From assembly GCA_018673485.1 (NCBI GenBank), contig JABHCP010000002.1, positions 67,502 to 123,733 on the forward strand: a DNA stretch of 56,232 nt, written 5' to 3'. This DNA is from Candidatus Uhrbacteria bacterium. GTDB taxonomy: Bacteria; Patescibacteriota; Patescibacteriia; UBA9934. Below the pieces are notes generated by a model. That model was given only the letters and a program-made list of their open reading frames with translations, was not told where the DNA came from and did no database searches. This document shows, in pieces, positions 35,109-51,913 of the stretch. How positions within the stretch are numbered: position 1 is the first letter of the stretch; every line of letters begins with the position of its first letter. A program made the position numbers and the translations under genes.

Positions 35109-35114
35109 CATTAT

Positions 35115-35199
35115 AACCTCCTTCAGTTTCCTTCTCCTTGAAGAGTGGGAGAGACTGATCAGGATCCCCCTACTTTTTAAGGAGGGGTAAGGGGTGGCT
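35115..35199. repeat. Degenerate family C palindromic repeat
   Basis: aacctccttcag..tctccttgaagagtgggag ... ccccctactttttaaggaggggtaaggggtggc. Confidence 0.55.
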
Positions 35200-35222
35200 A
35201 TAAAGATAGTTCAATAAACATG

Positions 35223-35247
35223 AGAACCCTCGCAAGAGGGTTCTTTT
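35223..35247 (+). terminator. Intrinsic terminator after the giant gene
   Basis: agaaccctc-gcaa-gagggttct-ttt. Confidence 0.75.
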
Positions 35248-35308
35248 AGATGCATTAAGCCCCGCCGGCCCAGAGGGTGGCGGGGAGTCTATTGCGAGCT
35301 AGTTGAGG

Positions 35309-35977
35309 CTAGAACTCGCAGACAAAGTCGTGACGAACGTCGAAGGCTTCGTCGACCATGGCGTAGGCGAGGTAGTCGTTTCCAACTTCCATGTCCACGA
35401 AGGGCATGTCTTCCTTATCGCCCTTGATCTCGAAGGAGGTGCCGTCGAACTCGAGCCACGAGCCGTTGCCCAGGTGTTCGTCCAGGCGCAGGATGTAGCC
35501 CTGTTCGGTCTCGACCGAACCCTCGTTGTATTCGTACATCACGGTGTCACCGTTATACATGGTGCACACGGCATCTCCGCTCACGAAGTACGAGATGAGG
35601 CTCACGGTGACCGGGTTCTCCGAGGTGTCGGTGTCGATCGTGGCCTTTCGGTTCACGTAGTCGATGCCGTCCACGGTGACGATCCGGTAGCCGTCAGCGG
35701 TCAGGTCGTTCTCGAGTGCGCCGAGCTGGATGCGCGCTTCGTTGCGCAGCTTCACGCTCAGGGGCTCACCGGTCACGCCTTCGGCGATGACTTCGGCGGT
35801 GTCCTCGATTGTGTAGTCCAGGCCGTCGATCACGTCGTTGCCGAGCATGGCGTCGATCATGATGGTCATGCTCTCGACCGGGGTACCGGTGTCGTCGGTG
35901 TTGTCGATGTTGCTCTCGCAGGCCCCAACGAAGAGGGCCAGGAAGAGAGCAGTCAGGATCGCGTTGATGCGGGTCAT
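35309..35977 (-). CDS. Putative acidic lipoprotein (GC-rich ORFan)
   Basis: Lipobox-like LFLALFVGA-C; SD GGAGG; promoter TTGACT-17-TATGGT near 36088-36116. Confidence 0.72.
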   Translation of the reverse strand: MTRINAILTALFLALFVGACESNIDNTDDTGTPVESMTIMIDAMLGNDVIDGLDYTIEDTAEVIAEGVTGEPLSVKLRNEARIQLGALENDLTADGYRIVTVDGIDYVNRKATIDTDTSENPVTVSLISYFVSGDAVCTMYNGDTVMYEYNEGSVETEQGYILRLDEHLGNGSWLEFDGTSFEIKGDKEDMPFVDMEVGNDYLAYAMVDEAFDVRHDFVCEF

Positions 35978-36352
35978 GATATGCCTCCAGGCACGGGGGT
36001 TGGGTAGCTTGGCTTTCGCCAGGCCTGCGGTGCGTACTCACGGGATGTGGCACACACAAGAGCTGTAAAGGACTATGATCTACACTAACCATAGCGTATT
36101 TTGGTATAAAAGTCAATGTGTCAAGAAAAATCACATCTCACACAGCAAAACCAGTCTTCCCCCAACCAAACCAAAAAACCGCCAACTCACGCGGTTTTTC
36201 ACTCATTCGATGCGCAAAAACTCACTACCCCATCGCCACCCCCTGTGGATAAAACAGTGGAAACAGTGTTGACAACCCACCACCCCCCATGCTTGATCTG
36301 TGAAAATTACCAGATTCTATTTTGAATTGCGATCATGACTCACTGTTGCGAA

Positions 36353-36381
36353 TTGGCCATGTGAGACATATTTGCTATAGT
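36353..36381 (+). promoter_or_regulatory. Putative promoter of the nucleotide-enzyme block
   Basis: TTGGCC(36353-36358)-17-TATAGT(36376-36381) with a TG extension; SD GAGGGAG before 36419. Confidence 0.5.
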
Positions 36382-36418
36382 TTCATCGACCCCAAATAAT
36401 TTCCCCGAGGGAGATGTC

Positions 36419-36988
36419 ATGAAGCGTACTGTCCTCTATGTCACTTCAAATGAGTTGAAATTCCAGGTTGCTCGTCATATTTTTGAAAAGACGGGCTTGA
36501 GCGATAGCATTGAACTTGAACAGGCCTCACAGGTGAGCTTGAGTGAAATACAAGCCGAGAGCTCTGTGGACGTGGCCTTAAGGAAGGCAAGTGATGCATA
36601 CCGTGTATGTGGAGTCAGTTGCATCGTCTCTGATAGCTCATTCCACATTCCGGCATTGAACGGTTTCCCTGGCCCATTTGTAAAGTTCGTAAACAGGTGG
36701 CTCACAGCTAAGCAGATTCTACTTATGTTGGAGCAAGACCAGCGAGTAGAAGCATTCTATGATGATGTTAGAGTGTATGTGAACGCAAAGGGTGAGAGTT
36801 ATGCGTTTCATTGCACGACGCACGGACATGTAGACCCTGCAGTCAGGGATGCTTCCGGAAGAGGCGTGGATAGCATCTTTATACCAGACGGTTTTGATGT
36901 GCCATTGTCATCTTTGCAAGCAGACGACCTGCTTAGTGTGTGGGATGAGTCAGGGTGGTGGAAATTAAAGGCACATCTAGGCGTTTGA
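36419..36988 (+). CDS. Ham1/ITPase-family non-canonical NTP pyrophosphatase-like protein #1
   Basis: TSNELK, EIQ, RKA, VSDSSF, ALNGFPGP, DSIFIP. The SHR motif is absent. Confidence 0.85.
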   Translation: MKRTVLYVTSNELKFQVARHIFEKTGLSDSIELEQASQVSLSEIQAESSVDVALRKASDAYRVCGVSCIVSDSSFHIPALNGFPGPFVKFVNRWLTAKQILLMLEQDQRVEAFYDDVRVYVNAKGESYAFHCTTHGHVDPAVRDASGRGVDSIFIPDGFDVPLSSLQADDLLSVWDESGWWKLKAHLGV

Positions 36989-37124
36989 TAGACACTTCGT
37001 TGTGTCATCGTAGCACTTTCGAATTTGCCCATTCTTAGGGTCCTACGCTCAGCGTTCCGTAGATTGTATCTGCGGGACGCTTATAGTTTATATAATGAGA
37101 ACACATAATAATATATTTATAGTT

Positions 37125-37916
37125 ATGGAATATCCAGCGAATATCCTATCTAATCGTGATGAAGATCCGAAAATTCTAAATAATATCGAGAACGCTTTAA
37201 AGGAAAGAAGGGGTTTTACATTCAGTTTAGAACACGGATGTCCGGTAGTTTTTTTAATTTCTGGTGGTTTGGATTCAATGTTGATAATGGATAGGCTGCT
37301 TGGTGAGTATGGTTGCGAGATATATCCTTTATATATAGAGAGAGGTGCAAGAGCAGGAAAATTTGAGAAACAATGTTGCGAAAAATATTGTGAGATTTAT
37401 CAAGAAAGATATCCAAAATTATTCCATTCAATGGAGGTTGTGCAGATGAATATCCCACCTAAAGAGTTTAAGTTGAATATAGGCGAGCATAGATTAAATA
37501 CAATAGGCCATCCAATGAGAAATGCGGTAATACAAAGCATTGGTGTTCAGTATGCTGTAAGTTTATCGTCATCCGTGGATTCACAAATAAAGCATGTATT
37601 TACCGCAACATCGCCTGACGATACTTTTCCTCACTCGAGTTTACTATCACTAAGATCCTTGACATTGATGGCTTGTGTTGATGGTGGAGACTGGGGGTGG
37701 CAAATTTCTTCCCCTTTACTTGAACCTACCTTGTGGGGCGAGCTAACCAAAGAGGACATGATAAGGTATGCTGTTGAACATGACTTACCACTAGAACATA
37801 CACGTACATGCACGCGGGGAGATGAATTGGCGTGTGCTAAGTGCCCAGAATGTCTTTGTCGTCTGAGGGCTTTTGCCGGAGTTGGCATCCAGGATCCGAT
37901 AGCTTATAAAATATAG
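37125..37916 (+). CDS. QueC-like PP-loop ATPase #1 (divergent)
   Basis: ISGGLDS, PMRN, SPL, and Zn motif C-x7-C-x2-C-x2-C (TRTCTRGDELACAKCPECLCR). YPDC is replaced by FPHS. The 37095 ATG overlaps a TATAAT, so 37125 is preferred. Confidence 0.85.
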   Translation: MEYPANILSNRDEDPKILNNIENALKERRGFTFSLEHGCPVVFLISGGLDSMLIMDRLLGEYGCEIYPLYIERGARAGKFEKQCCEKYCEIYQERYPKLFHSMEVVQMNIPPKEFKLNIGEHRLNTIGHPMRNAVIQSIGVQYAVSLSSSVDSQIKHVFTATSPDDTFPHSSLLSLRSLTLMACVDGGDWGWQISSPLLEPTLWGELTKEDMIRYAVEHDLPLEHTRTCTRGDELACAKCPECLCRLRAFAGVGIQDPIAYKI

Positions 37917-37946
37917 AAATGATATTTAATTTATAATAATGTATTT

Positions 37947-38528
37947 ATGCAAAAAAAAGACTTATATTTTATAACAGGGAATAAGCATAAGTTTGAGGTT
38001 GCTGAAAACTTTTTTAAAAATTGCGATGCTGGAAATTACTTTAATTTAATCCAGCATGATATTTCACCGCCAGAAATTCAGTCCGATTCTATAGGTACTA
38101 TAGCTACTAGTTCAGCACGTTGGGCATTTGAAAAAATCGGTAAGCCATTGATAACAGCTGACGCTGGATTGCAAATCGAAGCTTTGAATGGTTTTCCTGG
38201 CCCTTTTGTTAAGTATATGAATTCGTGGTTCAACCAAAACGATCTTTTGCGAATGATGGACGGCAAGCTAAATAGAACCGCTGTTTTTATGGATGCCTTA
38301 GCGTTTGTTTTTGGAGATATGGAGGAGGTTTTTAGTTCTGATACTATTGGTAAATTATCTACTAGTCCCGCCAAGGAAGATGGATATACAGTTGATCAAT
38401 TATTTATTCCAGATGGTATGGACAAGAGTTTAGTTCAACTGTCCAATGAAGAGAGGCGAGATGTTTGGAATGTTGAGCGATGGACGTTATTGACGGACTT
38501 TTTAATAAAAAATTATGACAAATTGTAA
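37947..38528 (+). CDS. Ham1/ITPase-family protein #2
   Basis: TGNKHK, EIQ, TADAGL, ALNGFPGPFVK, DQLFIP. The conserved Lys of (x)KA is lost (TSSAR) and SHR is absent. Confidence 0.85.
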   Translation: MQKKDLYFITGNKHKFEVAENFFKNCDAGNYFNLIQHDISPPEIQSDSIGTIATSSARWAFEKIGKPLITADAGLQIEALNGFPGPFVKYMNSWFNQNDLLRMMDGKLNRTAVFMDALAFVFGDMEEVFSSDTIGKLSTSPAKEDGYTVDQLFIPDGMDKSLVQLSNEERRDVWNVERWTLLTDFLIKNYDKL

Positions 38529-38702
38529 TGTTTAGTAGAATGTTGCAGTTTTGATAATCTAATTGCAGTCATTTTTGCTGCATTTTAGCTGAGAGATTTG
38601 AAGATTGTTCCAAGTTAATATCAGGTATGTATGTCTGGTATTTCTTGCTATTGATGCGTTTTTATACTAACATCGCCATAAGGGGTTCATTCTGAGCACC
38701 TA

Positions 38703-39374
38703 ATGCCTAATGGGAGCGACAAGATGCAACAGTCCATTCAAGAGATGATGAGCGAGCGTACATTGGTTTTGATCAAGCCAGATGCCGTCAAGCGGGCTTT
38801 GGTCGGGGTCATTTGCCAGCGCTTCGAAAGAGTTGGTATGAAGATCGCAGCTTGCAAGATGCTGATTCCAAGTCAGGAGCAGCTTGATGGTCATTTTGCC
38901 GGTTCGGAAGATTGGATCCGCGGTATGGGGGAGAAGACTCTGGCCGCATACAGCGAGCAAGGTATCGATCCGATGGAGGTGTTGGGCACCAATGATCCCG
39001 CGGTGATCGGTCAGAGAATCAAGGGTTGGAACTTCAACTACCTTTCACTCGGACCTGTTGTTGCAGTGGTACTTGAAGGGGTCCATGTTGTCGCCACAGT
39101 TCGAAAGATGGTAGGGAACACGTTGCCCTACAAGGCTGCACCCGGTACGATTCGAGGAGATTTCTCCATCAATTCGCCAGATTTGGCAAACTTGGTTGGC
39201 AGTGCCTGCAAGAACGTGGTCCACGCCTCCGGTACCGTAGACGAGGCAAGACACGAGATAGCGAATTGGTTCGCGCCATCAGAAGTTTGCGAGTGGGAAA
39301 GGGCGGATGAGTTCATTCATTTCGTCCAAGGAAAGTCCAGTCAACACCCGACCAAGAAGGAGATCGGATCATGA
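38703..39374 (+). CDS. ndk: Nucleoside diphosphate kinase (long form; start may be 38724 or later)
   Basis: ERTLVLIKPDAV, PGTIRGDF, NVVHASG (catalytic His). Confidence 0.93.
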   Translation: MPNGSDKMQQSIQEMMSERTLVLIKPDAVKRALVGVICQRFERVGMKIAACKMLIPSQEQLDGHFAGSEDWIRGMGEKTLAAYSEQGIDPMEVLGTNDPAVIGQRIKGWNFNYLSLGPVVAVVLEGVHVVATVRKMVGNTLPYKAAPGTIRGDFSINSPDLANLVGSACKNVVHASGTVDEARHEIANWFAPSEVCEWERADEFIHFVQGKSSQHPTKKEIGS

Positions 39375-39655
39375 GTGACTTCAACGCCGTGGAAGAGAAG
39401 CTGGCTGCCTTGAGGGGATCCAATCCCCGGGAGGCTGCGGAGTTCGCCTACGTTCTGGCCATGCTGCACAAGAATGCAGGTAACGACCAAGAGGCGGCTC
39501 GATTCGGAAAGGAGGCCATCAGTCTCTTCGATCAGTGTGAGATGGAAAGCATGGAGCAGTGCGCTGCAGTCAACGTCGTCGTTGAGGGCATTGCGCTCCC
39601 TAGCCTGATCCATCAGCAGGTCGTGCGTAATCGCCTCGATCCCATCGAGCTCTAG
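39371..39655 (+). CDS. Small helical (TPR-like) hypothetical protein coupled to ndk
   Basis: ATGA overlap, SD AGGAG, and the helical pattern AAEFAYVLAMLHKNAGNDQEAARFGKEAI. Confidence 0.75.
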   Translation: MSDFNAVEEKLAALRGSNPREAAEFAYVLAMLHKNAGNDQEAARFGKEAISLFDQCEMESMEQCAAVNVVVEGIALPSLIHQQVVRNRLDPIEL

Positions 39656-39671
39656 CGCGTGACCCAGTACT

Positions 39672-39704
39672 TACCCCGCTGACCGATTCGTGGTCGGCGG
39701 GGTA
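39672..39704 (+). terminator. Hairpin ending the ndk-TPR unit
   Basis: taccccgctgacc-gattcgt-ggtcggcggggta. Confidence 0.7.
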
Positions 39705-39813
39705 TCAGCGTTTTACAATATTCGCTGTAAAAAGACTTAATTTTGACAATAAAGACCATATTTGACAAAATAAATGCGCACTTAATATCTGATGTAAATT
39801 GCAAAATGTTTGT

Positions 39814-40380
39814 ATGGAAGAGATCATGATAGTCACAGGTAGTTCAAAGAAAATAGAGGAATACGGTAGGTATCTTGGTAGTGAACATGCTAATATTTCT
39901 GTATCAAAACTTGATATTGATATTCCTGAAATACAGTCTATAGACAGCCAGGAGATTATATTAAGTAAGGTAGACGCTGTATCTAAAGTGGTTTCAGGGC
40001 CTTTTTTGGTAGATGACGTAAGTTTTTATACAGATAGGTATCCAAATTTTCCAGGCGCATATGCAAAATTTACAAATAATACTTTGGGGGTAGATGGTTG
40101 GAGTCGACTATTTGAGGAAGGTGATAAAATCTCAGCTGTGGCAACACTTGGTTTTTATAGGTTCGGAAAGGTAGATTTTTTCAATGGAAAAATTGATGGG
40201 GTCATTTCGTTTGATGATAAAATACCTGTTGATACTGTATCACCAATTGATAGCACTTTTTATTTGCCTGAATATAATAACTATTTGTTCAATTTAGTTA
40301 AGAGCAATGATTTTAAAAATCATAGGCGACTCGCTTTTGAAGCTTTCTTGTTCCATGTGATTGATGTAGCCAGCTGCTAA
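39814..40380 (+). CDS. Ham1/ITPase-family protein #3
   Basis: TGSSKKIEE, EIQ, SKV, VDDVSF, FPGAY, DSTF, and C-terminal NHR (SHR-like). Confidence 0.85.
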   Translation: MEEIMIVTGSSKKIEEYGRYLGSEHANISVSKLDIDIPEIQSIDSQEIILSKVDAVSKVVSGPFLVDDVSFYTDRYPNFPGAYAKFTNNTLGVDGWSRLFEEGDKISAVATLGFYRFGKVDFFNGKIDGVISFDDKIPVDTVSPIDSTFYLPEYNNYLFNLVKSNDFKNHRRLAFEAFLFHVIDVASC

Positions 40381-40514
40381 CGTGTATCGTCTGTGATGTG
40401 CGTTGAATGGTGATTGCATTAAATGGTCTTGTAAGCTCTTCAGAGTCTGCATTTATCAGTTTTTGTGTCGCAACGTACTTTATAGAAAAACCCAATGTTC
40501 AAGGAGGGTGCAAG

Positions 40515-41063
40515 ATGAGTGTGTTGATGGTTGGTGGAATTCACGGAGTTGGGAAGACATTTGTGATCAGGAGAGCTGTGGATATTGTAGACCCATCGTT
40601 ACCGATTTTGAAGGGGTCCGAGATCCTAGCTCAGCTGTTAGATATTTCTACAGAGGAAATTCCATACGTAGATTCGAGTCGCCGAGCCAGTGCTAGGGTG
40701 CAGATGTTCCTGCGACTACAAAATGCTAGAGTAGGAGTTAGAGATGCACACTATAGCGTGCATTCATCAAGCGGATATGAGGCTGTTTTCGATCTTCGAG
40801 CTGCCAAGCATGTCGCGGCCATTGTGCTGCTGGTAGCTCCAGAGAATATTGTGTTAGAGAGGCGGCGGAATACTGGAAAGGACAGGCCCTTGGACATCGC
40901 TCAGATTCGCGAGCATGCCGAAATTGAGGAAGAGGCCGCTAAGAACTATTCTCAAAGGTTGGGTGTGCCCTTCTATATTGTCCGCAATACGCAAGATGAT
41001 GACGCAATCGGTGAGTTGGTACATCTAATTGAAAGGTATTGCGTGAAATCTCGTGAGGCATGA
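40515..41063 (+). CDS. P-loop nucleoside monophosphate kinase (archaeal AdkA-like)
   Basis: Walker A GIHGVGKT, DAH, LERRR..GKDR lid-like segment. SD AGGAGG precedes the ATG at 40515. Confidence 0.8.
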   Translation: MSVLMVGGIHGVGKTFVIRRAVDIVDPSLPILKGSEILAQLLDISTEEIPYVDSSRRASARVQMFLRLQNARVGVRDAHYSVHSSSGYEAVFDLRAAKHVAAIVLLVAPENIVLERRRNTGKDRPLDIAQIREHAEIEEEAAKNYSQRLGVPFYIVRNTQDDDAIGELVHLIERYCVKSREA

Positions 41064-41137
41064 ATTGATATTTATCAAAACATGCCTCCATAATGCTTTT
41101 CCGTTGAGGTGAATAGTCTTAAGAAAAAATAATCTAT

Positions 41138-41863
41138 ATGTATAAAGATATAAGTCCATTCGGTATTAACATAGACGCATCCACAATTGGTGAGGCATGG
41201 GTGGATTTAGTCGATGCAATTTTGGAGCACGGAAAAAAATCTTTAGATGAAGATAGGGGAAGGTTGGCACTGCAAAATGTTAGATTGAGAATTAGCGATG
41301 TTTCATTGCCAGATAAAATTATTGAAAAATATGGAGATAAGGAAAACATTGATGCGATTTTGCATCTTACATTGAAGGGTGATGAAATGTATGACTTTGA
41401 CGTTGTTCCCAGCTTTAGCCCTGGTGCAAAAAGTTACAATGCCAGGATTAAGGAGGGGAGAATGATAGAGTTCGTGGTCAAGAGGTTGAGCAACATTCCT
41501 GAGAGCAAAAAAGCTATAATAAGTTTTATACACTGGGATGATTATAAGGCAGTTCTCGATACCCCATTTGACGATTATTTACCTTGCATAACGACGGTTC
41601 AGTTTAGATTGCTTGAGGATAAAGATGGATTGAAAATGAATGTTAATTTTACCGCGAGGTCGATAGATGCTTTTCAAAAGGCAAATGGAAATATTATTGC
41701 CATAGTTGCTTTAGCTCAGGAGGTTTGCGGGCAATTAATGACGAGTCTGGATAAGAAGATTGAAATAAATGCCATTGATGGCTTCATTACAGATGCTCAT
41801 GTGTATGGTGAGTGCTTAGAAGGTGCCAAAGCAGTTGTAGCCAAAGTTAGGTCAGAGATATGA
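41138..41863 (+). CDS. Thymidylate synthase-fold protein (ThyA / hydroxymethylase superfamily)
   Basis: SYNAR, PESKKAII, LPC (catalytic Cys), QF, RSID, aligned Asn (RSIDAFQKANGN), DAHVY. Confidence 0.88.
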   Translation: MYKDISPFGINIDASTIGEAWVDLVDAILEHGKKSLDEDRGRLALQNVRLRISDVSLPDKIIEKYGDKENIDAILHLTLKGDEMYDFDVVPSFSPGAKSYNARIKEGRMIEFVVKRLSNIPESKKAIISFIHWDDYKAVLDTPFDDYLPCITTVQFRLLEDKDGLKMNVNFTARSIDAFQKANGNIIAIVALAQEVCGQLMTSLDKKIEINAIDGFITDAHVYGECLEGAKAVVAKVRSEI

Positions 41864-42699
41864 AGACTAAAATTATAAATACAGACACCGCGGGTAATAT
41901 AGAAAACAATAAACTGGAGGACCTTTCCGTTTTGGAGGATGTCGAGAAGATATTTAAAAAACGTAGGCCTCATATAGCTCATATTCCAAAAGAAGGCAGT
42001 GTTGTGGTGGCATCTGTTTCCGGTGGAATGGATACGATAGCTAATTTAGCCATTCTCATGCAAGAATTTAAGCTAAAGGTATATCCAATATTCATAAATA
42101 GAGGACAGACTAATTATGTTTGGGAGAAGAAGTCGGTAGACTTTTTCAATAATTATTATAATAAAAGATTTCCCAAATATTATAATGACTATATTGAGGT
42201 AGAGTTAGCATCACCACCAGATGGATATAAGGAAATGTTGAATAGCACAAGGGCCCTACCTGACAACGTAGAGATGAGGAGGAATGTGGCGTACCCATCG
42301 AGAAATTCAACTATTGCATTAACATGCATGGAATATGCTTATGCCCTGCAAAGCAAGGGTGTATATCCTAAGACCGTATTTTCTGTTCATACAGCCGATG
42401 ACCCAGTTTTGCATTCTTCATTAACAGCTGTCAGGGTTGCGAATCTACTGATGTGTCAGATTACCGCAGACTATAATTGGCAGTTCATCTCTTTACCCAT
42501 TGAAAAAGAATTAGGTAATTATTTCGGTAAAGCAAGATTGGTTAAATGGGCTTATGAAAATGATATTCCACTGGAGAAAACCAGGAGTTGTTATAAGGCC
42601 AGCAAAGAACACTGCGGGGAATGTTTTCCGGCGTGTAAAAATAGAAAAAAGGCATTCGCAGATGCTGACATAGAAGATAGTACTTCTTACATCATTTAA
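41860..42699 (+). CDS. QueC-like PP-loop ATPase #2 (divergent)
   Basis: VSGGMDT, YPSRN, TRSCYKASKEHCGECFPAC. YPDC is replaced by VLHS. ATGA overlap with the TS-like gene. Confidence 0.85.
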   Translation: MKTKIINTDTAGNIENNKLEDLSVLEDVEKIFKKRRPHIAHIPKEGSVVVASVSGGMDTIANLAILMQEFKLKVYPIFINRGQTNYVWEKKSVDFFNNYYNKRFPKYYNDYIEVELASPPDGYKEMLNSTRALPDNVEMRRNVAYPSRNSTIALTCMEYAYALQSKGVYPKTVFSVHTADDPVLHSSLTAVRVANLLMCQITADYNWQFISLPIEKELGNYFGKARLVKWAYENDIPLEKTRSCYKASKEHCGECFPACKNRKKAFADADIEDSTSYII

Positions 42700-42711
42700 T
42701 GAAAATAGTTT

Positions 42712-43284
42712 ATGAGTAGAAGACTGTTGGATGGAATAGAAACTAAAGTTCTGATTGAGCAAAAGCGTGAAATTCAAATGAAACTTTTATCACTGGGGTG
42801 GGAGATACAGGATTTGGTTTCGAAAAGAGAGGAGCGGTTATTTAGTGACGGTGATTCAACAAGGGTTATATTGAAAACAGATAAGAACAATCGTACCAGT
42901 TCTATGCAGGTTGATGTTGATTCAATGAACTCTATTGATGAGAGGAACGGTTGCTGTAGCTACGTGGTGCAGTTTGGTGATATAAAAAAAATACGGGAGG
43001 CATTATCTATGTCAGATTTTAGCAATCAAAGAGTATTGGAATTTTTTCAGCAAGCCTGGATGAATGAATCATACGGCAATGATTTGAATGTTATTTTTGA
43101 AATGTTACCTTTTGCCAATATTCTTAGAATTAGAGGTACGTCTCAAAAAGTAGAAGAATTATTGGAGCATTTAGATTTAATATATGCAGAGAGATTAGAT
43201 TGCAATTATTGGACTGCGTATGAGAATTTTTGCAAAGTCAATTCTATCGTAGAGAGACAGAATATAGAATTTGGTAGCAACTAA
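42712..43284 (+). CDS. Hypothetical protein, possible degenerate CYTH (triphosphate tunnel) domain
   Basis: The N-terminus IETKVLIEQKREIQMKLLSLGW resembles the CyaB ExExK start. Later motifs are not clearly canonical. The ORF itself is well supported. Confidence 0.5.
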   Translation: MSRRLLDGIETKVLIEQKREIQMKLLSLGWEIQDLVSKREERLFSDGDSTRVILKTDKNNRTSSMQVDVDSMNSIDERNGCCSYVVQFGDIKKIREALSMSDFSNQRVLEFFQQAWMNESYGNDLNVIFEMLPFANILRIRGTSQKVEELLEHLDLIYAERLDCNYWTAYENFCKVNSIVERQNIEFGSN

Positions 43285-44067
43285 ATAAATTTTATGATGA
43301 GTTTGATTGCATGTTGCAGAAAGGCTTAAATAAACTATTGCGTTGCTAGTGGAGGTACTATGTTGACCACATTTTGAAATTATCCCCATTGAGTGTTGAA
43401 GTCGACGAGACAGGATTTGGTTGTAAGGTTCGCATAGATTTTAGAACGTGTTGAAGGGCTTCAACACGTTTTTGGTGTTTTGGGTTGTTTTGGCTATTGC
43501 GTAGAGCCCCAATAGATAGTGCAATAGACATAGAACGTTCAGAGCTTTGCAATTTGCGAAGCACGCAATTCAAATCGAGTCTCGAGGCTTGGTCTGACAG
43601 ACGTATTGCGACTGCATCACCCGTAAGTCAATGTGTATTAGAAGAGAGAACTGTGCATATTGATAAACGATGCTGTGGCCACGATGCGTAATAATCAAAC
43701 ACGCGCTTCTTTAAGGGGAGTGGGAGGCGCGCATGTCCGTACAACTTCTATTTGTGGGTCTGTCACAAAACAACCATTTGGTTCATTTATCCAAAAGCGT
43801 TGCTGCAGCACCTACGAGAAAATACAGCAATAGCGCCACTATTACAGTATTTTCTCGCAGGCACTTCGCTAACGTTTTGAAAAAATGACCTCAAAAGTTT
43901 GTTCTGCGACAGACCCATATCTTTGGCAAGCGGGCGCATGAAACTCGCGTCCTCAAGCGTCCGCGCACCAAAGGGTCGTCTCTGTCTGGGCACAACTCCT
44001 ATGCAGGCAGAGACGGAAGTCTAATTTCAGATTTACGCCTCATCTTTCACTCAAGTGTGAGGAACAG

Positions 44068-45942
44068 ATGCACAGCGCCCGATACCTTTTCTATTCGTTT
44101 ATGATCGTCTCTATGAGCTTCATGGCAAGCCTGCTACTCGCTGGGTGTCTGGGCTTTGGTGGCGGTGGTCAAGATGTGATCACGATCCAGATGCCTTTTG
44201 CCTATGGCTACAGTAGCCTGTGCACTCAGGGTGTTAATGGGTCGTATTCACACGGTTATAGCTCAACTCGCTATGATCTTGATCTCGATACACCTAACGA
44301 TCGTGACGATTATATCTACGCACCCATTGGCGGTACTGCTTATGTGCATGACTCCGACCGTGATGACGGATTTGGCGTGCACATTAATATCGATTTGGGT
44401 GATGGGACTTACATCATTCTCGCTCACTTGGACGACACACTCATCGGCGACGGTGAGGAGGTGGCGCAAGGTCAGTTGATCGCTATCGAGGGCACGACCG
44501 GTGCCTCCTCCGGTGATCACCTGCACATCGGTAGGCATAGCGGTGACGCCACCAGCAACGGCTGGGACGGCGTGTCGCTCGAGGGCTTGGTTATTGAGGC
44601 CTACAGCTCCAGCGACGGAGGTCTCGATTCCTATCTTACCTCCGAGTTCGTCTGTGACCTGTCCGGTGGACACTACTACCAGTCTCGAATGGAGACACCG
44701 GTTTGGCACCCAAATGGCACCTTGGTGATGACTCCAAACTCGCCCGACGTGTACGTTCTTAACGAGGGCTATAAGTACCTCATTGAGGACGAGGGCGTGT
44801 TTTGGAGCTACAACTGGGACTTTTCCCAGCTCGTGTACGTCGATGAGACCGAGCTCGCATGCTACGCAGATGGTGCGAGTTTGAGTGACGAAACGCAGAT
44901 CACTGCCGTCTACAACGAAGGCGTAGTGTGGTTGCTTGTTGGCGCTCAAGATGGTGAGGACTATCTGCGCTATCGGGTGTCGTCGAGCTACTGGCAAGCG
45001 ATCCTCAAGAGCTGGGGAATTACCGCCTCGACTTATGATGATCTTTCTACCAGCACCGAGCTCTTCGACTACTACTACGAGAGTTCGCAAAGCGCCACTT
45101 TGCGTGAGGGCACACTTGTCACTGAAGCTTCGAGCTCAGACGTATATGTGATCATGCAGGGCGCCGCTTACCCGATCTTGGATTGGGATACGTACTTAGG
45201 GCTTGGGTTTTGGAACCGTGAAGTCATCGCGCTTGATGATGGAGCCGTGCATGGAATCCAAGGGTCGGTGGGCGACTGCAACACTGGATTCGGGTGCATC
45301 ACCTACGAGGATCTGCTTTACTGCGGAGGGGAGTCATGGGACGGAAGCACTTATCCTGACGACACCCAGGACACAAGTGAATATGGCGACGAGGGTGATA
45401 CTGGTGAACCATTGGATGAGCCAGAAGACGATCCGGATGATCCAGAGCTTGGAGACACTGGCTTCGATGATGATCCTGACGATCAGCAAGACACAGGTGA
45501 CGAGCAAGATGAGCAGGATGATCCTGATGACGATCCTGTGGATGATCTTCCTGATGATCTTGGTGAAGGTCTTTCGTGGATTCGTGTTGATGGTGGTTAT
45601 ATCGGCCTGCGAGTTGCAGAGGTATTTGATTCGTCAGTCGATGGCGAAGATGTCGCAGCAACCGGAGTCGGAGTTGATTCAGGCTGGGGCTACAACGGCT
45701 CCAACCTTGCAGACTACGAGAGCGAGACTGACATGGCGTGGTACGAGCTTTCCACTGGGTGGTACAGAATGACCATGCGAACGTCGTCAGAATGGGCAAT
45801 TTATAACCACTACTGCGCATCTACCTCGAGCACCTCGGATCTGTGTCACGAAAACGCAGATGGCTCTTACGCGCTGTGCTTTGAGGTCTCGAGCGGGGAA
45901 GTGCAAACGCTCTCAAGCGCAGATTGCGCAACACTTGAATAA
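44068..45942 (+). CDS. M23 family metallopeptidase, putative lipoprotein, with acidic linker
   Basis: Lipobox LLAG-C; H..D motif (SHGYSSTRYDLD); YIILAHL; HLH (SSGDHLHIG); two repeats HPNGTLV..PDVYVL / LREGTLV..SDVYVI; D/E-rich linker. Confidence 0.88.
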   Translation: MHSARYLFYSFMIVSMSFMASLLLAGCLGFGGGGQDVITIQMPFAYGYSSLCTQGVNGSYSHGYSSTRYDLDLDTPNDRDDYIYAPIGGTAYVHDSDRDDGFGVHINIDLGDGTYIILAHLDDTLIGDGEEVAQGQLIAIEGTTGASSGDHLHIGRHSGDATSNGWDGVSLEGLVIEAYSSSDGGLDSYLTSEFVCDLSGGHYYQSRMETPVWHPNGTLVMTPNSPDVYVLNEGYKYLIEDEGVFWSYNWDFSQLVYVDETELACYADGASLSDETQITAVYNEGVVWLLVGAQDGEDYLRYRVSSSYWQAILKSWGITASTYDDLSTSTELFDYYYESSQSATLREGTLVTEASSSDVYVIMQGAAYPILDWDTYLGLGFWNREVIALDDGAVHGIQGSVGDCNTGFGCITYEDLLYCGGESWDGSTYPDDTQDTSEYGDEGDTGEPLDEPEDDPDDPELGDTGFDDDPDDQQDTGDEQDEQDDPDDDPVDDLPDDLGEGLSWIRVDGGYIGLRVAEVFDSSVDGEDVAATGVGVDSGWGYNGSNLADYESETDMAWYELSTGWYRMTMRTSSEWAIYNHYCASTSSTSDLCHENADGSYALCFEVSSGEVQTLSSADCATLE

Positions 45943-46007
45943 CACTCAACCTTGAGTGTTCTAACGGGCCGCATCGCGGCCCGTTCATGCTAGCACTACA
46001 CCGGTGC

Positions 46008-46911
46008 CGGGCCGTTGATTGTAGCATTTTATCATTTATATTAAGGTTTTTATGTCTAGATCTTTAAGAATACAATATCCTGGAGCTTTATATCATGTAA
46101 CCAGTCGTGGCAATCGCAAAAAAGATATTTTTACCAGCGATTCAGATCGGCAGATCTTTATATCCTTATTGCGTCGTATTATCAAAAAGCACAATTTATT
46201 GTTACACGCATATTGCTTGATGAATAATCACTATCATCTACTTTTAGAGACAATAGATCCAAATTTGTCTTGCAGCATGCGCGAACTAAATGGTCGATAT
46301 GCTCAGACTTACAATAAAATCAATGGAACGGTGGGACATCTATTCCAGGGCAGGTATAAGGCATTTGTTATAGAGAAGGAATCATATTTATTGGAAGTTG
46401 CACGATATATAGTCATAAATCCAGTTCGAGCAAAGCTCACTAAGCATCCCGGTGATTGGGAGTGGAGTAGTTATAGGTCCACGGCAGGACTGAATAGCAT
46501 TCATGATTCTGTATATTCAGATTTTTTGTTAGGCATGTTTTCAAAAAGTAGAAATATTGCCCAGGACGAATATCAGCGTTTTGTTCTCGGTGGTATAGGA
46601 TTGAAGTCACCGTTTCAAGATTCTCGAGAAGGTAATATTTTAGGTTCTGCAAGATTTGCTGCAGAATTATGGAATGAGAATCTTGAGTGCATTAATGAAA
46701 TTGTTCGCGCTGAGCGTATGGTTGCAAGGCCAAGCCTGAGTGATATTTTTGAGCGCACGTTTATGAAAGAAGATAGGAATAAGGCTATCTATCAAGCTCG
46801 TTTGCGCGCAGGTTATTCAATGACTGAAATTGCAAAATTTCTGGATTTACATCGAACAACTGTTAGTGGAATATTCAGTAAAATGTTCAAAACACTACAA
46901 TCAACGGCCCG
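46008..46911. mobile_element. IR-bounded Y1/HUH (RAYT-like) transposase element
   Basis: Perfect 17-bp inverted repeat: cgggccgttgattgtag (46008-46024) and ctacaatcaacggcccg (46895-46911). Confidence 0.7.
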
Positions 46912-46930
46912 ACCCCCGGTTGAGGAATAA
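46052..46930 (+). CDS. REP-associated/IS200-like tyrosine transposase (Y1_Tnp) with C-terminal HTH
   Basis: YHVTSRGN, YCLMNNHYHLL (HUH), GHLFQGRY, YIVINP, WEWSSY, and a C-terminal HTH (YSMTEIAKFLDLHRTTVS). Confidence 0.9.
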   Translation: MSRSLRIQYPGALYHVTSRGNRKKDIFTSDSDRQIFISLLRRIIKKHNLLLHAYCLMNNHYHLLLETIDPNLSCSMRELNGRYAQTYNKINGTVGHLFQGRYKAFVIEKESYLLEVARYIVINPVRAKLTKHPGDWEWSSYRSTAGLNSIHDSVYSDFLLGMFSKSRNIAQDEYQRFVLGGIGLKSPFQDSREGNILGSARFAAELWNENLECINEIVRAERMVARPSLSDIFERTFMKEDRNKAIYQARLRAGYSMTEIAKFLDLHRTTVSGIFSKMFKTLQSTARPPVEE

Positions 46931-46994
46931 GTAGTTTAATATGTGTGCAAAAATGCTCAAAAAAGTATCTGCGTCATGCTATAATGATTCCAGT

Positions 46995-49604: not shown

Positions 49605-49610
49605 TAACAC

Positions 49611-51910: not shown

Positions 51911-51913
51911 TGT

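What the first reader, a model, noticed from the sequence alone, without database searches (positions are those of the whole stretch)
36419..43284. Candidate new system: a nucleotide-modification island (3x Ham1, 2x QueC-like, TS-fold, NMP kinase, NDK, CYTH-like)
Seen: nine consecutive + strand genes, eight of them nucleotide-acting folds. Order: Ham1 - QueC-like - Ham1 - ndk - small helical - Ham1 - NMP kinase - TS-fold - QueC-like - CYTH-like (ten ORFs counting the CYTH-like gene). Two ATGA overlaps link ndk to the helical gene and TS to QueC. Established: Ham1 enzymes turn NTPs into NMPs; TS-fold enzymes modify C5 of pyrimidine NMPs (phage dUMP/dCMP hydroxymethylases, MilA); NMP kinase plus NDK rebuild triphosphates; QueC activates a carboxylate by adenylation. 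Defence systems reuse these folds (QueC in QatABCD and type IV CBASS, HAM1 in Kongming). Inference: the set spells out NTP -> NMP -> modified NMP -> modified NTP. It could (a) make a non-canonical nucleotide for DNA/RNA modification or as a toxin, (b) sanitise or recycle modified nucleotides scavenged by a host-dependent CPR cell, or (c) act as nucleotide-based anti-phage defence. No queD/queE/folE/tgt/dpdA, Sir2, CD-NTase or TatD is in the window, so it matches none of the named systems.
Basis: partly seen in the sequence, partly recalled or inferred. Interest (0 to 1): 0.92.

Follow-up and report, generated by a model that had tools for sequence, protein, structure and literature searches.

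The report
Conserved pyrimidine-nucleotide modification cluster in ultrasmall symbionts
A Patescibacteria genome carries a ten-gene block whose core, a divergent thymidylate-synthase-like enzyme coupled to QueC-like ATP-dependent enzymes, a nucleotide pyrophosphatase and a nucleotide kinase, recurs in at least 79 species of ultrasmall bacteria and archaea, fits no named system, and probably builds a chemically modified pyrimidine nucleotide that has not been identified.

Summary
Both ATGA overlaps are real.

The ten-gene block as a whole is not the conserved unit. The unit is TS-like, plus QueC-like (often two paralogs) or a SAM methyltransferase, plus one NTP pyrophosphatase (Ham1, CYTH or NUDIX), plus one NMP kinase, sometimes with NDK.

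That unit occurs in 84 non-redundant loci from many Patescibacteria classes and from Nanoarchaeota. It was found on no viral contig. PADLOC gave only generic QueC-model hits, and none of the six paper searches returned a description of it.

- The TS-like enzyme keeps the catalytic Cys, Arg-Ser-Asp and His/Tyr residues but lacks the ThyA C-terminal segment.
- Its base-specifying residue is Asn in 50 members (the window included) and Asp in 29, which points to uracil-type and cytosine-type branches.
- The QueC-likes keep the PP-loop and the Zn site but lack two canonical substrate motifs.
- The window's CYTH copy has lost its catalytic residues.

Best reading: (d)NTP to (d)NMP, then C5 modification, then an ATP-dependent amidation, then re-phosphorylation. 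The product and its destination are unknown. Novelty: a new variant of a known kind of pathway. Interest 0.78.

The parts
36419..36988 (+). g1, Ham1-family NTP pyrophosphatase, 'W-type'. The core motifs TSNELK, SEIQ, DSSF and NGFPGPFVK are kept. The C-terminal SHR base-recognition motif is replaced by S-V-W.
   Evidence: Pfam PF01725 at 5.2e-20. Motif table. A 14-bp terminator-like hairpin follows at 37051-37081.
37095..37916 (+). g2, QueC-like PP-loop ATPase of subfamily cl3. In sister loci L003, L006 and L008 this subfamily is the copy that lies next to the TS-like gene.
   Evidence: Pfam QueC at 7.3e-15. SGGLDS and a 4-Cys motif are present, and the canonical Y35, H39 and YPDC residues are absent. 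Subfamily clustering.
37947..38528 (+). g3, Ham1-family NTP pyrophosphatase, 'W-type', with D-V-W in place of SHR.
   Evidence: Pfam at 5.6e-26. The nearest solved relative is M. jannaschii Mj0226 at 1e-22, and the Kongming HAM-like protein scores only 2e-12. Motifs.
38703..39374 (+). g4, nucleoside diphosphate kinase with an internal insertion of about 50 aa. The active-site His context NVVHAS is present.
   Evidence: Pfam NDK at 2.2e-34 in two stretches. Sequence. NDK lies beside the cluster in a few other loci: L011, L036, L037, L039 and L040.
39371..39655 (+). g5, a 94-aa helical protein, weakly TPR-like, translationally coupled to ndk by an ATGA overlap. It is not part of the conserved system.
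   Evidence: Weak TPR hits at E = 0.009-0.08. No relative in any of 87 loci. Overlap read.
39799..40380 (+). g6, Ham1-family NTP pyrophosphatase, 'HR-type', which keeps N-H-R. TTG start.
   Evidence: Pfam at 7.7e-14 over the full profile length. Motifs.
40407..41063 (+). g7, P-loop nucleotide kinase related to archaeal adenylate kinase (KinA). This is the most frequent kinase type in the conserved cluster.
   Evidence: NF003122 at 2.4e-8, 33.7 bits against a cut-off of 155. PDB 3h86 archaeal Adk at 1.3e-4, with the P-loop GGIHGVGKT. KinA lies in the TS chain of 34 of 84 loci.
41138..41863 (+). g8, the signature gene: a short, divergent TS-fold enzyme of the Asn (uracil) type. Key residues are Cys150, Arg174-Ser175-Asp177, Asn185, Asp219-His221-Tyr223, Arg40 and Lys124-Lys125.
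41860..42699 (+). g9, QueC-like PP-loop ATPase of subfamily cl1, translationally coupled to g8 by an ATGA overlap.
   Evidence: Pfam QueC at 1.6e-11. Alignment and invariant residues. Model and fold search. 27 of 29 cl1 members lie directly downstream of a TS-like gene. Overlap read.
42712..43284 (+). g10, a degenerate CYTH (triphosphate tunnel metalloenzyme) homolog that is probably catalytically inactive. The changes are ExExK to GxExK, K66Q, E83S, R113Q, E139R and E141R.
   Evidence: In related five-gene loci the same position holds truncated CYTH remnants: L086 117 aa and L087 121 aa. A terminator-like hairpin lies at 43443-43472.

Best explanation
The block is an expanded copy of a gene cluster shared by Patescibacteria (CPR) and DPANN archaea. 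The cluster most likely makes a modified pyrimidine nucleotide at the level of free nucleotides.

**Proposed order of steps**
1. A Ham1-family pyrophosphatase (CYTH or NUDIX in other genomes) cleaves a pyrimidine (d)NTP to the (d)NMP. This supplies the substrate and lowers the pool of the canonical triphosphate.
2. The TS-fold enzyme g8 attacks C6 of the base with Cys150 and adds a one-carbon unit at C5. Asn185 indicates a uracil substrate in this window.
3. The QueC-like PP-loop enzymes g9 and g2 spend ATP to adenylate an oxygen on that nucleotide, either on the new C5 substituent or on a ring carbonyl. They then replace it with nitrogen (amide, amine or nitrile chemistry). In other genomes a SAM methyltransferase fused to Ham1 takes this place.
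4. The Adk-like kinase g7 and NDK g4 rebuild the triphosphate, probably for use by a polymerase.

**Status of each claim**
- Shown: the genes, their folds, the intact catalytic motifs, the translational coupling and the conservation of the cluster.
- Inferred: the order of steps, the deoxy sugar and the C5 chemistry.
- Speculative: the atom that the QueC-likes act on, the product and its destination (DNA is favoured).
For: **Conservation**
- There are 592 TS-like homologs, and every source name among the 120 listed is CPR.
- There are 79 GTDB species loci across Woese-, Nealson-, Uhr-, Ames-, Berkel-, WWE3-, Levy- and Saccharibacteria and Nanoarchaeota.
- Among the 62 loci with at least 2.5 kb on both sides, 54 have QueC-like or MTase in the chain, 52 have Ham1, CYTH or NUDIX, and 33 have a kinase.
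- The set TS + two QueC-likes + Ham1 + KinA occurs in 10 loci, including the window and L085-L087.

**Non-orthologous displacement at fixed positions**
- The pyrophosphatase is Ham1, CYTH or NUDIX.
- The kinase is KinA or a dNK/Tmk-like type.
- The partner enzyme is QueC-like or an MTase-Ham1 fusion.

**Catalytic competence of the TS-like enzyme**
- C150, R174, S175 and H221 are invariant in 79 sequences.
- The residue equivalent to E. coli N177 is N in 50 and D in 29.
- The TS fold is confirmed, nearest to the CMP hydroxymethylase MilA.

**QueC-likes**
- They keep SGGxDS, PxRN and the Cys4 Zn site.
- They replace the substrate motifs YxQxHxxE and YPDC that are defined for canonical QueC.

**Hints that the sugar is deoxyribose**
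- In 9-13 sister loci the gene next to the TS-like gene encodes a DNPH1/Rcl-like domain. PDB names this family 5-hydroxymethyl-dUMP N-hydrolase (9e-14). The catalytic Glu is replaced by Gln, and a ribbon-helix-helix-like tail follows, so the protein looks like a dNMP-sensing regulator.
- dNK/Tmk-like kinases and YfbR-like HD genes lie in some clusters.

**Other**
- Where Ham1 is present, the CYTH gene is decaying.
Against: - No product, substrate or cofactor has been measured.
- The folate site cannot be judged. The enzyme lacks the ThyA C-terminal segment, and the N-terminal half aligns poorly with ThyA.
- The best structural match is a ribonucleotide enzyme, MilA, so RNA-level or free-base products are not excluded.
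- Only about half of the complete loci carry a kinase and only a few carry NDK, so re-phosphorylation may rely on housekeeping enzymes or may not happen.
- None of the paper searches returned a report of wholesale base replacement in CPR DNA (the library is limited).
- A Ham1 plus kinase pair also occurs in Southlakia, which lacks the TS-like and QueC-like genes. Those two parts could therefore be general salvage genes that merely cluster with the TS-QueC pair.
- The QueC-like subfamily combinations vary (cl1 alone, cl1+cl3, cl3+cl2, cl1+cl2) and do not fit one simple two-step scheme.
Confidence: 0.45

Rival explanations
1. Salvage and sanitation island. The symbiont lives on scavenged host nucleotides. 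The Ham1 enzymes remove non-canonical or modified NTPs, the kinases and NDK re-phosphorylate salvaged NMPs, and the TS-like/QueC-like pair converts a scavenged modified pyrimidine nucleotide (for example 5-hydroxymethyl, 5-formyl or 5-carboxy forms) back into a usable one.
For: - The distribution is restricted to Patescibacteria and DPANN, groups described as lacking nucleotide biosynthesis (PMC10633639).
- Southlakia has Ham1+AAA-kinase and NDK-like+Ham1 pairs without the TS-like gene.
- The neighbour family is related to DNPH1, an enzyme that clears 5-hydroxymethyl-dUMP.
- There is no export, polymerase or glycosylase partner in the window.
Against: - TS-fold enzymes build C5 substituents. 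Removal of such groups is not an established activity of this fold.
- The tight translational coupling of TS and QueC, and the Asn/Asp split with matching partner sets, look like a dedicated biosynthetic route.
- The cluster was recovered in only 79 species genomes by a motif-seeded scan, so it looks accessory, whereas salvage needs are universal in these groups.
Confidence: 0.2
2. An alternative housekeeping thymidylate (or deoxycytidylate) synthesis route for organisms without a normal folate cycle. The short TS-like enzyme does the C5 methylation, and the QueC-like or SAM-methyltransferase partner supplies or recycles the one-carbon donor.
For: - g8 has the short architecture of methanogen-type TS (TIGR03283 at 3.5e-13 over its full length) and lacks the ThyA C-terminal cofactor-closing segment.
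- A Tmk-like kinase lies in some clusters.
- No ThyA or ThyX was found in 1.2 Mb of flanks (a weak test).
Against: - 29 of 79 members carry Asp at the uracil-specifying position, so they cannot be dUMP methylases in the classical sense.
- The family was recovered in few CPR genomes.
- Southlakia uses canonical Tmk-Dcd-DHFR-ThyA.
- L003 has a separate canonical Tmk 6 kb away from the cluster.
- No reductase is present for a reductive methylation.
Confidence: 0.1
3. Production of a nucleoside or nucleobase antimetabolite or signal directed at the host or at competitors. This would resemble the bacimethrin and mildiomycin pathways (TS-like CMP hydroxymethylase, N-glycosidase, methyltransferase) or 6-thioguanine synthesis (PP-loop YcfA acting on GTP). 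The Ham1 enzymes would serve as self-protection.
For: - The nearest structure is MilA.
- The PP-loop enzyme YcfA, solved with GTP bound, is among the g9 fold matches.
- MTase variants of the cluster and a DNPH1/MilB-fold neighbour recall BcmA, BcmB and BcmC.
- An ABC exporter lies next to the cluster in 7 loci.
Against: - The DNPH1-like protein has lost its catalytic Glu and carries a DNA-binding-like tail, so it is not a glycosidase.
- The window has no exporter, phosphatase or glycosidase.
- Kinases and NDK point towards triphosphates, not towards secreted bases.
Confidence: 0.1
4. Anti-phage defence by nucleotide depletion or by synthesis of a toxic nucleotide, in the manner of QatABCD, type IV CBASS, Kongming or viperin-like systems.
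For: - QueC and HAM1 folds are reused in named defence systems.
- The distribution looks patchy and accessory.
- Kinases accompany prokaryotic viperins (own knowledge).
Against: - PADLOC finds only the generic QueC model.
- QatC scores are 12-19 bits against a cut-off of 280.
- None of the scanned window ORFs matched an ATPase-sensor, nuclease, Sir2, CD-NTase or deaminase partner.
- The neighbourhood is partly syntenic with a distant Parcubacteria genome (KsgA, M23 peptidase, T4SS-like genes). That argues for a stable chromosomal locus, not a defence island.
- The window Ham1 proteins are closer to the archaeal NTPase Mj0226 than to the Kongming HAM-like protein.
Confidence: 0.07
5. A 7-deazaguanine or queuosine-related salvage pathway. 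The QueC-likes would process a deazapurine carboxylate or amide scavenged from host tRNA, feeding the tRNA-guanine transglycosylase.
For: - The proteins belong to the QueC family.
- tgt lies divergently next to TS-QueC-NUDIX in oral Saccharibacteria.
- A PF10343 Q_salvage gene flanks the cluster in L085.
Against: - These adjacencies occur in only two lineages.
- The canonical QueC substrate residues Y35, H39 and YPDC are replaced.
- No role for a TS-fold enzyme in deazapurine chemistry is known.
- None of the scanned window ORFs matched queD, queE, folE, queF or tgt.
Confidence: 0.06

Closest known systems
Phage pre-replicative base-substitution pathways (T4 gp56 dCTPase, gp42 dCMP hydroxymethylase, gp1 dNMP kinase, host NDK; SPO1 dUMP hydroxymethylase; the Z-genome set MazZ/PurZ/DatZ)
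   Same: The logic is the same. An NTP pyrophosphatase supplies the NMP and lowers the canonical dNTP pool, a base-modifying enzyme acts on the NMP (TS-fold in T4 and SPO1), and a dedicated kinase plus NDK rebuild the triphosphate.
   Different: - The cluster is found in cellular genomes (CPR and DPANN) and on no viral contig.
- The pyrophosphatase is Ham1, CYTH or NUDIX, not the dUTPase or MazG fold.
- One or two QueC-like PP-loop enzymes (or a methyltransferase) are added, which have no counterpart in these phage pathways.
- The product is unknown.
MilA / BcmA nucleoside-antibiotic pathways (mildiomycin, bacimethrin)
   Same: A TS-fold enzyme acts on a pyrimidine NMP, and MilA is the best structural match (TM 0.70). 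The Asp-type relatives pair with a SAM methyltransferase and a protein of the MilB/DNPH1 fold.
   Different: - Sequence identity is about 17%.
- The window enzyme is the Asn (uracil) type.
- The DNPH1-like neighbour is catalytically altered and looks like a regulator.
- Kinases are present, and QueC-like partners are unknown in these pathways.
Canonical QueC (7-cyano-7-deazaguanine synthase) and its defence paralogs QatC and Cap9
   Same: Same fold, the PP-loop SGGxDS, the PxRN motif and the C-terminal Cys4 zinc site. The nearest solved structures are QueC 2pg3 and Cap9 9nto.
   Different: - The substrate-pocket motifs YxQxHxxE and YPDC are replaced.
- There are no queD, queE or folE neighbours and no QatA, QatB, QatD, CD-NTase or Cap10.
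- The 2026 survey of PF06508 does not mention a thymidylate-synthase-linked or CPR group.
Methanogen-type short thymidylate synthase (TIGR03283) and ThyA
   Same: TS fold and a short architecture. The catalytic Cys, Arg-Ser-Asp, Asn and Asp-x-His-x-Tyr residues are kept.
   Different: - Scores are far below the equivalog cut-offs (49.5 against 174.6 bits).
- SRR is replaced by SKK.
- Gln180-Lys181 is near-invariant where ThyA has Leu-Gly.
- The ThyA C-terminal segment is missing.
- Part of the family has Asp at the base-specifying site.
- The enzyme is genetically coupled to QueC-like genes.
6-thioguanine pathway YcfA (PP-loop enzyme acting on a free purine nucleotide)
   Same: It is a precedent for a PP-loop ATPase that activates a ring oxygen of a free nucleotide. 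The PDB holds a YcfA-GTP complex, and YcfA is among the g9 fold matches.
   Different: The similarity is remote (TM about 0.45). YcfA acts on a purine and has a sulfur-transfer partner. It has no TS-fold partner.

Membership tests
Canonical QueC (preQ0 synthase) | SGGxDS PP-loop and the C(x)8CxxCxxC zinc motif | tested here: met
   g9 has SGGMDT and C244, C252, C255, C259. g2 has SGGLDS and four Cys. These residues are invariant in 29 sequences.
Canonical QueC (preQ0 synthase) | The substrate motifs YxQxHxxE (Y35 essential) and YPDC (Y131 essential), as defined in PMC13329287 | tested here: not met
   g9 has NRGQTNyvwE and g2 has ERGARAgkfE, so there is no Tyr or His at those positions. YPDC is replaced by (A/P)DDP/DDT...HS. 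Only PxRN is kept.
Canonical QueC (preQ0 synthase) | Genomic linkage to queD, queE or folE, and a score above the TIGR00364 cut-off | tested here: not met
   No such genes were found among the 41 window ORFs scanned or in the TS gene chains of the related loci. TIGR00364 scores are 33 and 27 bits against a cut-off of 150.
QatABCD / type IV CBASS (QatC, Cap9) | A QatC- or Cap9-type protein with QatA, QatB and QatD, or with CD-NTase and Cap10, as neighbours | tested here: not met
   NCBIfam QatC at E = 0.052 and 5.8e-4 (12-19 bits, cut-off 280). PADLOC QatC at 0.0041 and 14 bits. No partner genes are present.
Kongming (HAM1-containing defence) | A HAM1-like protein together with deaminase and SIR2-like partners | tested here: not met
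   No partner was found among the scanned window ORFs. g3 matches archaeal Mj0226 at 1e-22 and the Kongming HAM-like chain at only 2e-12. PADLOC found nothing for g1, g3 or g6.
Thymidylate synthase ThyA | TS fold with the catalytic Cys, Arg-Ser-x-Asp, Asn177 and Asp-x-His-x-Tyr | tested here: met
   C150, R174, S175, D177, N185, D219, H221 and Y223 are present. Fold search probability is 1.00 for many TS chains. Pfam scores 34.5 bits against a cut-off of 24.3.
Thymidylate synthase ThyA | Equivalog-level score, the Arg-Arg phosphate clamp and the C-terminal cofactor-closing segment | tested here: not met
   NCBIfam scores are 18-50 bits against cut-offs of 175-327. SRR is replaced by a near-invariant SKK. 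The protein ends about 18 residues after His-x-Tyr, whereas ThyA has more than 40 further residues.
Thymidylate synthase ThyA | Methylation of dUMP to dTMP with methylene-tetrahydrofolate | not testable with these tools
   This needs an enzyme assay or complementation of a thyA mutant.
CYTH / triphosphate tunnel metalloenzyme (g10) | The N-terminal ExExK motif and the conserved acidic and basic tunnel residues | tested here: not met
   The window copy has G-I-E-T-K, and Q66, S83, Q113, R139 and R141 where relatives have K, E, R, E and E. It has no Pfam hit, while 14 of its 15 aligned relatives hit PF01928. It is a homolog of the family and probably not an active member.
Ham1 / ITPase family (g1, g3, g6) | Core catalytic motifs (T-G/S-N-x-x-K, PEIQ, Asp, FPG..K) | tested here: met
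   All three copies keep them, and the Pfam scores are above cut-off.
Ham1 / ITPase family (g1, g3, g6) | The C-terminal S-H-R motif of purine-specific ITPases | tested here: not met
   g1 has S-V-W and g3 has D-V-W. Only g6 keeps N-H-R. All NCBIfam equivalog scores are below cut-off. The role of SHR is from my own knowledge of ITPA and RdgB.
Nucleoside diphosphate kinase (g4) | NDK domain with the active-site His | tested here: met
   Pfam scores 118.7 bits against a cut-off of 27. The NVVHAS context is present. The match is split by an insertion.
Archaeal adenylate kinase AdkA (g7) | Equivalog-level similarity and a P-loop | tested here: inconclusive
   The P-loop is present. NF003122 scores 33.7 bits against a cut-off of 155, and PDB 3h86 matches at 1.3e-4. 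It is a related kinase whose substrate is unknown.
Phage-type pre-replicative base-modification pathway | A modified dNTP is made and incorporated into DNA | not testable with these tools
   This needs LC-MS of DNA nucleosides or analysis of raw long-read signals.

The most novel reading that the evidence does not exclude
Some Patescibacteria and DPANN archaea make a hypermodified pyrimidine deoxynucleotide before replication, by a TS-fold enzyme followed by QueC-fold amidation, and incorporate it into their own chromosome. This would be a thymine-derived base in Asn-type carriers such as this window and a cytosine-derived base in Asp-type carriers such as oral Saccharibacteria. I know of no earlier case of phage-style nucleotide-level DNA base substitution in cellular prokaryotes. 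It would also be a new chemistry for both enzyme folds.
Probability: 0.2. Interest if true: 0.93.

Novelty: new variant of a known kind. Interest (0 to 1): 0.78.

Why it matters

- **A defined, testable gene set.** It consists of TS-like, QueC-like, an NTP pyrophosphatase and a kinase. It is conserved across both groups yet absent from current annotation schemes, defence catalogues and the 2026 survey of the QueC family.
- **If the product is a modified DNA base.** It would change how these genomes are sequenced and restricted. It would also bear on how symbiont DNA is told apart from host DNA.
- **If the product is a salvage intermediate or an antimetabolite.** It would bear on the symbiotic exchange itself.
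- **New enzymology either way.** The cluster points to new chemistry for two well-studied folds. The Asn/Asp split gives a built-in prediction of uracil against cytosine substrates.
- **Experiments are feasible.** Asp-type carriers include oral Saccharibacteria, a group with cultivated members.

Tried and rejected
- **PADLOC and PHROGs scans of all ten proteins.** Only generic QueC and TS families matched, and no defence system was found.
- **Direct PDB sequence searches.** g8 found nothing and g9 found nothing significant. A profile of the g8 family matched TS only at E = 0.22. Structure prediction was therefore needed.
- **Scan of 2.9 million viral contigs with the TS-like profile.** No hit, so a phage origin or phage carriage is not supported.
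- **Search for canonical ThyA or ThyX in 1.2 Mb of flanking DNA.** This covers only about 15 kb per genome and does not settle co-occurrence.
- **hhalign of the family against E. coli ThyA.** The aim was to map folate-site residues. The N-terminal half aligned with low confidence (probability 3.5%), so I make no claim about Glu58, Trp80 or Trp83 equivalents.
- **Queuosine lead.** tgt adjacency is confined to one lineage of oral Saccharibacteria and Q_salvage to one locus. It is kept only as a low-probability rival.
- **g5 as a system component.** Rejected, because it has no relative in 87 loci.
- **A simple model for the QueC-like subfamilies.** In this model one subfamily converts U-derivatives to C-derivatives and another does a common later step. 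It does not fit the observed combinations.
- **Six literature searches on this gene combination or on CPR nucleotide handling.** None returned a description of the cluster.
- **Tn-seq tables for Southlakia.** That organism lacks the TS-like and QueC-like genes, so no fitness data apply. The TM7x supplement held nothing relevant.

Full report
**1. What is in the window**

The window is chromosomal DNA of a Patescibacteria (CPR) bacterium.
- It encodes TyrRS, ArgRS, NusA, YidC, GroEL, a release factor, KsgA and Sua5.
- The nearest named relatives of its GroEL are Parcubacteria (82%) and Uhrbacteria (77%).
- Downstream of the block lie an M23 peptidase, an IS200-like transposase and a type IV secretion-like set with PrgI and a VirB4/TraG-like ATPase.

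The two ATGA overlaps (ndk/g5 and TS/QueC) are in the sequence.

Terminator-like hairpins after g1, g3 and g10, together with promoter-like sites before g6 and g8, suggest several transcription units, with g8-g9-g10 as one of them. The promoter scan as a whole is not above its shuffled expectation.

**2. Gene identities**

HMM scans confirm the folds:
- Ham1 for g1, g3 and g6.
- QueC for g2 and g9.
- NDK with an insertion for g4.
- A P-loop kinase closest to archaeal adenylate kinase for g7.
- A thymidylate-synthase family protein for g8, which matches the short methanogen-type TS model over its full length. All equivalog scores are far below cut-off.

*g8 and g9.* Neither has a significant sequence match to a solved structure. 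AlphaFold2 models built on family alignments are confident, with pLDDT 93 and 95.5.
- The g8 model matches TS-fold enzymes, best the CMP hydroxymethylase MilA at TM 0.70.
- The g9 model matches QueC and Cap9, and more weakly other PP-loop enzymes including GMP synthase, TtuA and the 6-thioguanine enzyme YcfA.

*g10.* It has no Pfam hit. It belongs to a family in which 14 of 15 aligned members are CYTH, and the family profile matches the Sulfolobus triphosphate tunnel metalloenzyme at 9e-14. The window copy has lost the first Glu of ExExK and five further conserved charged residues, so it is probably inactive.

*g5.* It has no relative anywhere in the related loci.

**3. Conservation**

The TS-like protein has 592 homologs at E <= 1e-3. 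They are 50-70% identical to g8, and every source name among the 120 listed is CPR. An exhaustive profile search of 1.84 billion cluster representatives gives only 16 representatives at E <= 1e-30, so the family is compact and strongly conserved. More remote hits of about 200-215 aa appear from about 1e-16; from their length they may be methanogen-type TS, but they were not identified.

A scan of one genome per GTDB species found 79 loci. They come from Woese-, Nealson-, Staskawicz-, Uhr-, Ames-, Levy-, Berkel-, WWE3- and Saccharibacteria (including oral Nanosynbacter) and from Nanoarchaeota.

I called ORFs in all loci and classified them with iterated profile searches seeded from the window genes and from recurrent neighbours. 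There are 84 non-redundant loci, of which 62 have at least 2.5 kb on both sides. The gene chain that contains the TS-like gene also holds:

| Partner in the chain | All 84 loci | The 62 complete loci |
|---|---|---|
| QueC-like gene | 59 | 46 |
| QueC-like gene or SAM methyltransferase | 69 | 54 |
| Ham1, CYTH or NUDIX | 66 | 52 |
| Kinase | 38 | 33 |

The set TS + two QueC-likes + Ham1 + Adk-like kinase occurs in 10 loci: the window, L003, L006, L008, L010, L041, L052 and L085-L087. The exact ten-gene arrangement is unique to the window.

**4. Patterns that bear on function**

(a) *Non-orthologous displacement.*
- The NTP-cleaving enzyme is Ham1 in some lineages, CYTH in others and NUDIX in others.
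- The kinase is Adk-like or dNK/Tmk-like.
- Where no QueC-like gene is present, the gene after the TS-like gene is usually a fusion of a class I SAM methyltransferase with Ham1.

Such swaps at fixed positions argue that the steps 'NTP to NMP' and 'NMP to NDP' belong to the pathway.

(b) *Catalytic residues of the TS-like family.* All 79 full-length sequences keep the nucleophile Cys150, Arg174, Ser175 and His221. Almost all keep Asp177, Asp219 and Tyr223, together with family-specific Lys124-Lys125 (Arg-Arg in ThyA) and Gln180-Lys181.

(c) *The base-specifying residue.* The residue aligned with E. coli Asn177 specifies uracil when it is Asn and cytosine when it is Asp in classical TS-fold enzymes (established knowledge of ThyA and T4 dCMP hydroxymethylase).
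- It is Asn in 50 members and Asp in 29.
- The Asp type comprises the oral Saccharibacteria clusters (TS-QueC-NUDIX-orf160) and all methyltransferase-type clusters.
- The window and all CYTH-type clusters are the Asn type.
- This split is hard to reconcile with a housekeeping thymidylate synthase.

(d) *A neighbour in sister loci.* In 9-13 loci, including the closest relatives of the window cluster, the gene beside the TS-like gene encodes a domain homologous to DNPH1/Rcl, the 2'-deoxynucleoside 5'-phosphate N-hydrolase. PDB depositors now name that enzyme 5-hydroxymethyl-dUMP N-hydrolase (E = 9e-14).
- Its catalytic Glu is replaced by an invariant Gln.
- A C-terminal segment follows that weakly matches the ribbon-helix-helix region of NikR.
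- I read this protein as a regulator that senses a 5-substituted dNMP. It is the best available hint that the intermediates are deoxynucleotides with a C5 substituent. The gene is absent from the window.

(e) *The QueC-likes.* They keep the PP-loop, PxRN and the Cys4 zinc site. They lack the Tyr35/His39 and YPDC substrate motifs that were shown by mutagenesis to be essential in canonical QueC (PMC13329287).
- They fall into three subfamilies, all linked to the TS-like gene. The window has cl1 (g9) and cl3 (g2).
- The 2026 survey of PF06508 does not mention a thymidylate-synthase-linked or CPR group.

(f) *Ham1 and CYTH.*
- g1 and g3 lack the C-terminal SHR motif of purine-specific ITPases and carry a conserved Trp there instead. 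g6 keeps N-H-R.
- Where Ham1 is present, the CYTH gene after TS-QueC is truncated (L086, L087) or has lost catalytic residues (the window).

**5. Most likely mechanism**

1. A Ham1 enzyme converts a pyrimidine (d)NTP to the (d)NMP.
2. g8 adds a one-carbon unit at C5 of a uracil nucleotide through the classical Cys-C6 adduct.
3. g9 and g2 adenylate an oxygen of that product and replace it with nitrogen. This follows the known chemistry of QueC (carboxylate to amide to nitrile), TilS and GMP synthase (ring carbonyl to amine).
4. g7 and g4 rebuild the triphosphate.

The genes, folds, motifs and linkage are shown. The order of steps, the deoxy sugar and the C5 chemistry are inferred. The atom targeted by the QueC-likes, the one-carbon donor and the fate of the product are speculative. 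The donor is uncertain because the enzyme lacks the ThyA C-terminal segment that closes over folate.

A methyltransferase can stand in for the QueC-like enzyme. This fits either capping of a carboxylate or hydroxyl on the C5 substituent, or modification of the C2 oxygen as BcmC does in bacimethrin synthesis (own knowledge). I cannot choose between these. Confidence in the overall reading is 0.45.

**6. Rivals**

- *Salvage and sanitation (0.2).* This fits the lifestyle. It also fits the Ham1-kinase and NDK-Ham1 pairs in Southlakia, which lacks the TS-like gene and uses canonical Tmk-Dcd-DHFR-ThyA. It does not explain a TS-fold enzyme coupled to QueC-likes.
- *Alternative housekeeping thymidylate synthesis (0.1).* The Asp-type members and the small number of carrier genomes recovered count against it.
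- *Antimetabolite or signal production (0.1).* MilA, BcmA and YcfA provide precedents, and ABC exporters lie beside 7 loci. The window has no exporter or glycosidase, and it does have kinases.
- *Defence (0.07).* No support.
- *Queuosine or deazaguanine link (0.06).* It rests on tgt adjacency in one lineage and a Q_salvage gene in one locus.

**7. Comparison with known systems, and verdict**

The cluster works like the phage nucleotide-level base-substitution pathways (T4, SPO1, Z-genome). It differs in three ways: it sits in cellular genomes, it uses other pyrophosphatase folds, and it adds a QueC-fold step.

It is not a member of the queuosine, Qat, CBASS type IV or Kongming systems, because defining features were tested and not met. 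It belongs to the TS fold family but not to ThyA equivalogs. No viral contig carries it, and none of the six paper searches returned a description of it.

I rate it a new variant of a known kind of pathway with an unknown product, interest 0.78. There is a 0.2 chance that it marks nucleotide-level DNA base substitution in cellular organisms.

Noticed in passing
window 26061-35108: A single 3015-aa ORF immediately upstream of the island, rich in Cys, Asp and Thr, with an N-terminal hydrophobic segment. It looks like a giant secreted or surface protein of the kind common in CPR genomes.
   Followed up: no
window 46941-54569; L004 1-3266: A type IV secretion-like block: an 887-aa membrane protein, a 598-aa protein, PrgI, a 235-aa protein and a VirB4/TraG-like ATPase. 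The same kinds of neighbours (PrgI, TraC-like, KsgA, LysM-M23 peptidase) flank the TS-QueC-CYTH cluster of a marine Parcubacteria contig. The chromosomal context is therefore partly syntenic across distant relatives.
   Followed up: partly
window 46052-46930: An IS200-like Y1 transposase domain fused to a C-terminal helix-turn-helix. It lies between the M23 peptidase and the secretion genes.
   Followed up: no
window 35100-36400 and 44000-46000: Patches of higher G+C (51-53%, against about 38-45% in the island) flank the island on both sides. The first holds a - strand lipoprotein-like ORF at 35309-35977 (signal peptide with the lipobox VGAC). The second holds the M23 peptidase, which has a long acidic low-complexity tail.
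   Followed up: no
L003 9285-9947, L006 92-709, L008 9304-9906, L010 8529-9131, L036 5537-6118, L037 10723-11310, L038 9255-9872: A family of about 200 aa lies directly beside the TS-like gene. It has a DNPH1/Rcl-like domain (5-hydroxymethyl-dUMP N-hydrolase fold) with the catalytic Glu replaced by Gln, followed by a ribbon-helix-helix-like tail. It is a candidate nucleotide-sensing regulator and is absent from the window.
   Followed up: yes
L070 3179-4894, L077 7313-8758, L081 11156-12826, L068 8214-9428: Fusions of a class I SAM methyltransferase with Ham1 follow Asp-type TS-like genes in loci that lack a QueC-like gene. The human Maf-methyltransferase fusion ASMTL is a loose parallel (own knowledge).
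   Followed up: partly
L064 8476-12456 and 12 related oral Saccharibacteria loci; L085 5628-6947: In oral Saccharibacteria a tRNA-guanine transglycosylase lies divergently next to TS(Asp)-QueC-NUDIX-orf160. In L085 a PF10343 queuosine-salvage gene and an HTH regulator lie next to QueC-Ham1-kinase-TS-QueC. These are only two lineages, so the lead towards queuosine is weak.
   Followed up: partly
L026, L074, L076, L081, L083 (OX335598.1, complete Saccharibacteria chromosome): In these loci the TS-like gene is split into two or three ORFs. The cause could be pseudogenisation of an accessory gene or frameshift errors in the assemblies.
   Followed up: no
L086 3684-5210: A diversity-generating retroelement signature (reverse transcriptase plus a bAvd accessory protein) lies 4 kb upstream of a TS-QueC-QueC-Ham1-kinase cluster.
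   Followed up: no
window 23468-23878: A further NUDIX hydrolase lies between a sugar epimerase and Sua5/TsaC, 12.5 kb upstream of the island. It was not linked to the island by any test.
   Followed up: no
L051 12438-14195, L054 12496-14253, L010 5972-7336 and four others: ABC-transporter genes lie next to the cluster in 7 loci. The two tested differ in architecture. L051 encodes a 585-aa ABC_membrane + ABC_tran protein. L010 encodes a 454-aa ATPase-only protein with several ABC_tran stretches. L054 has a 585-aa protein like that of L051. This is a possible hint of product export in some lineages.
   Followed up: partly
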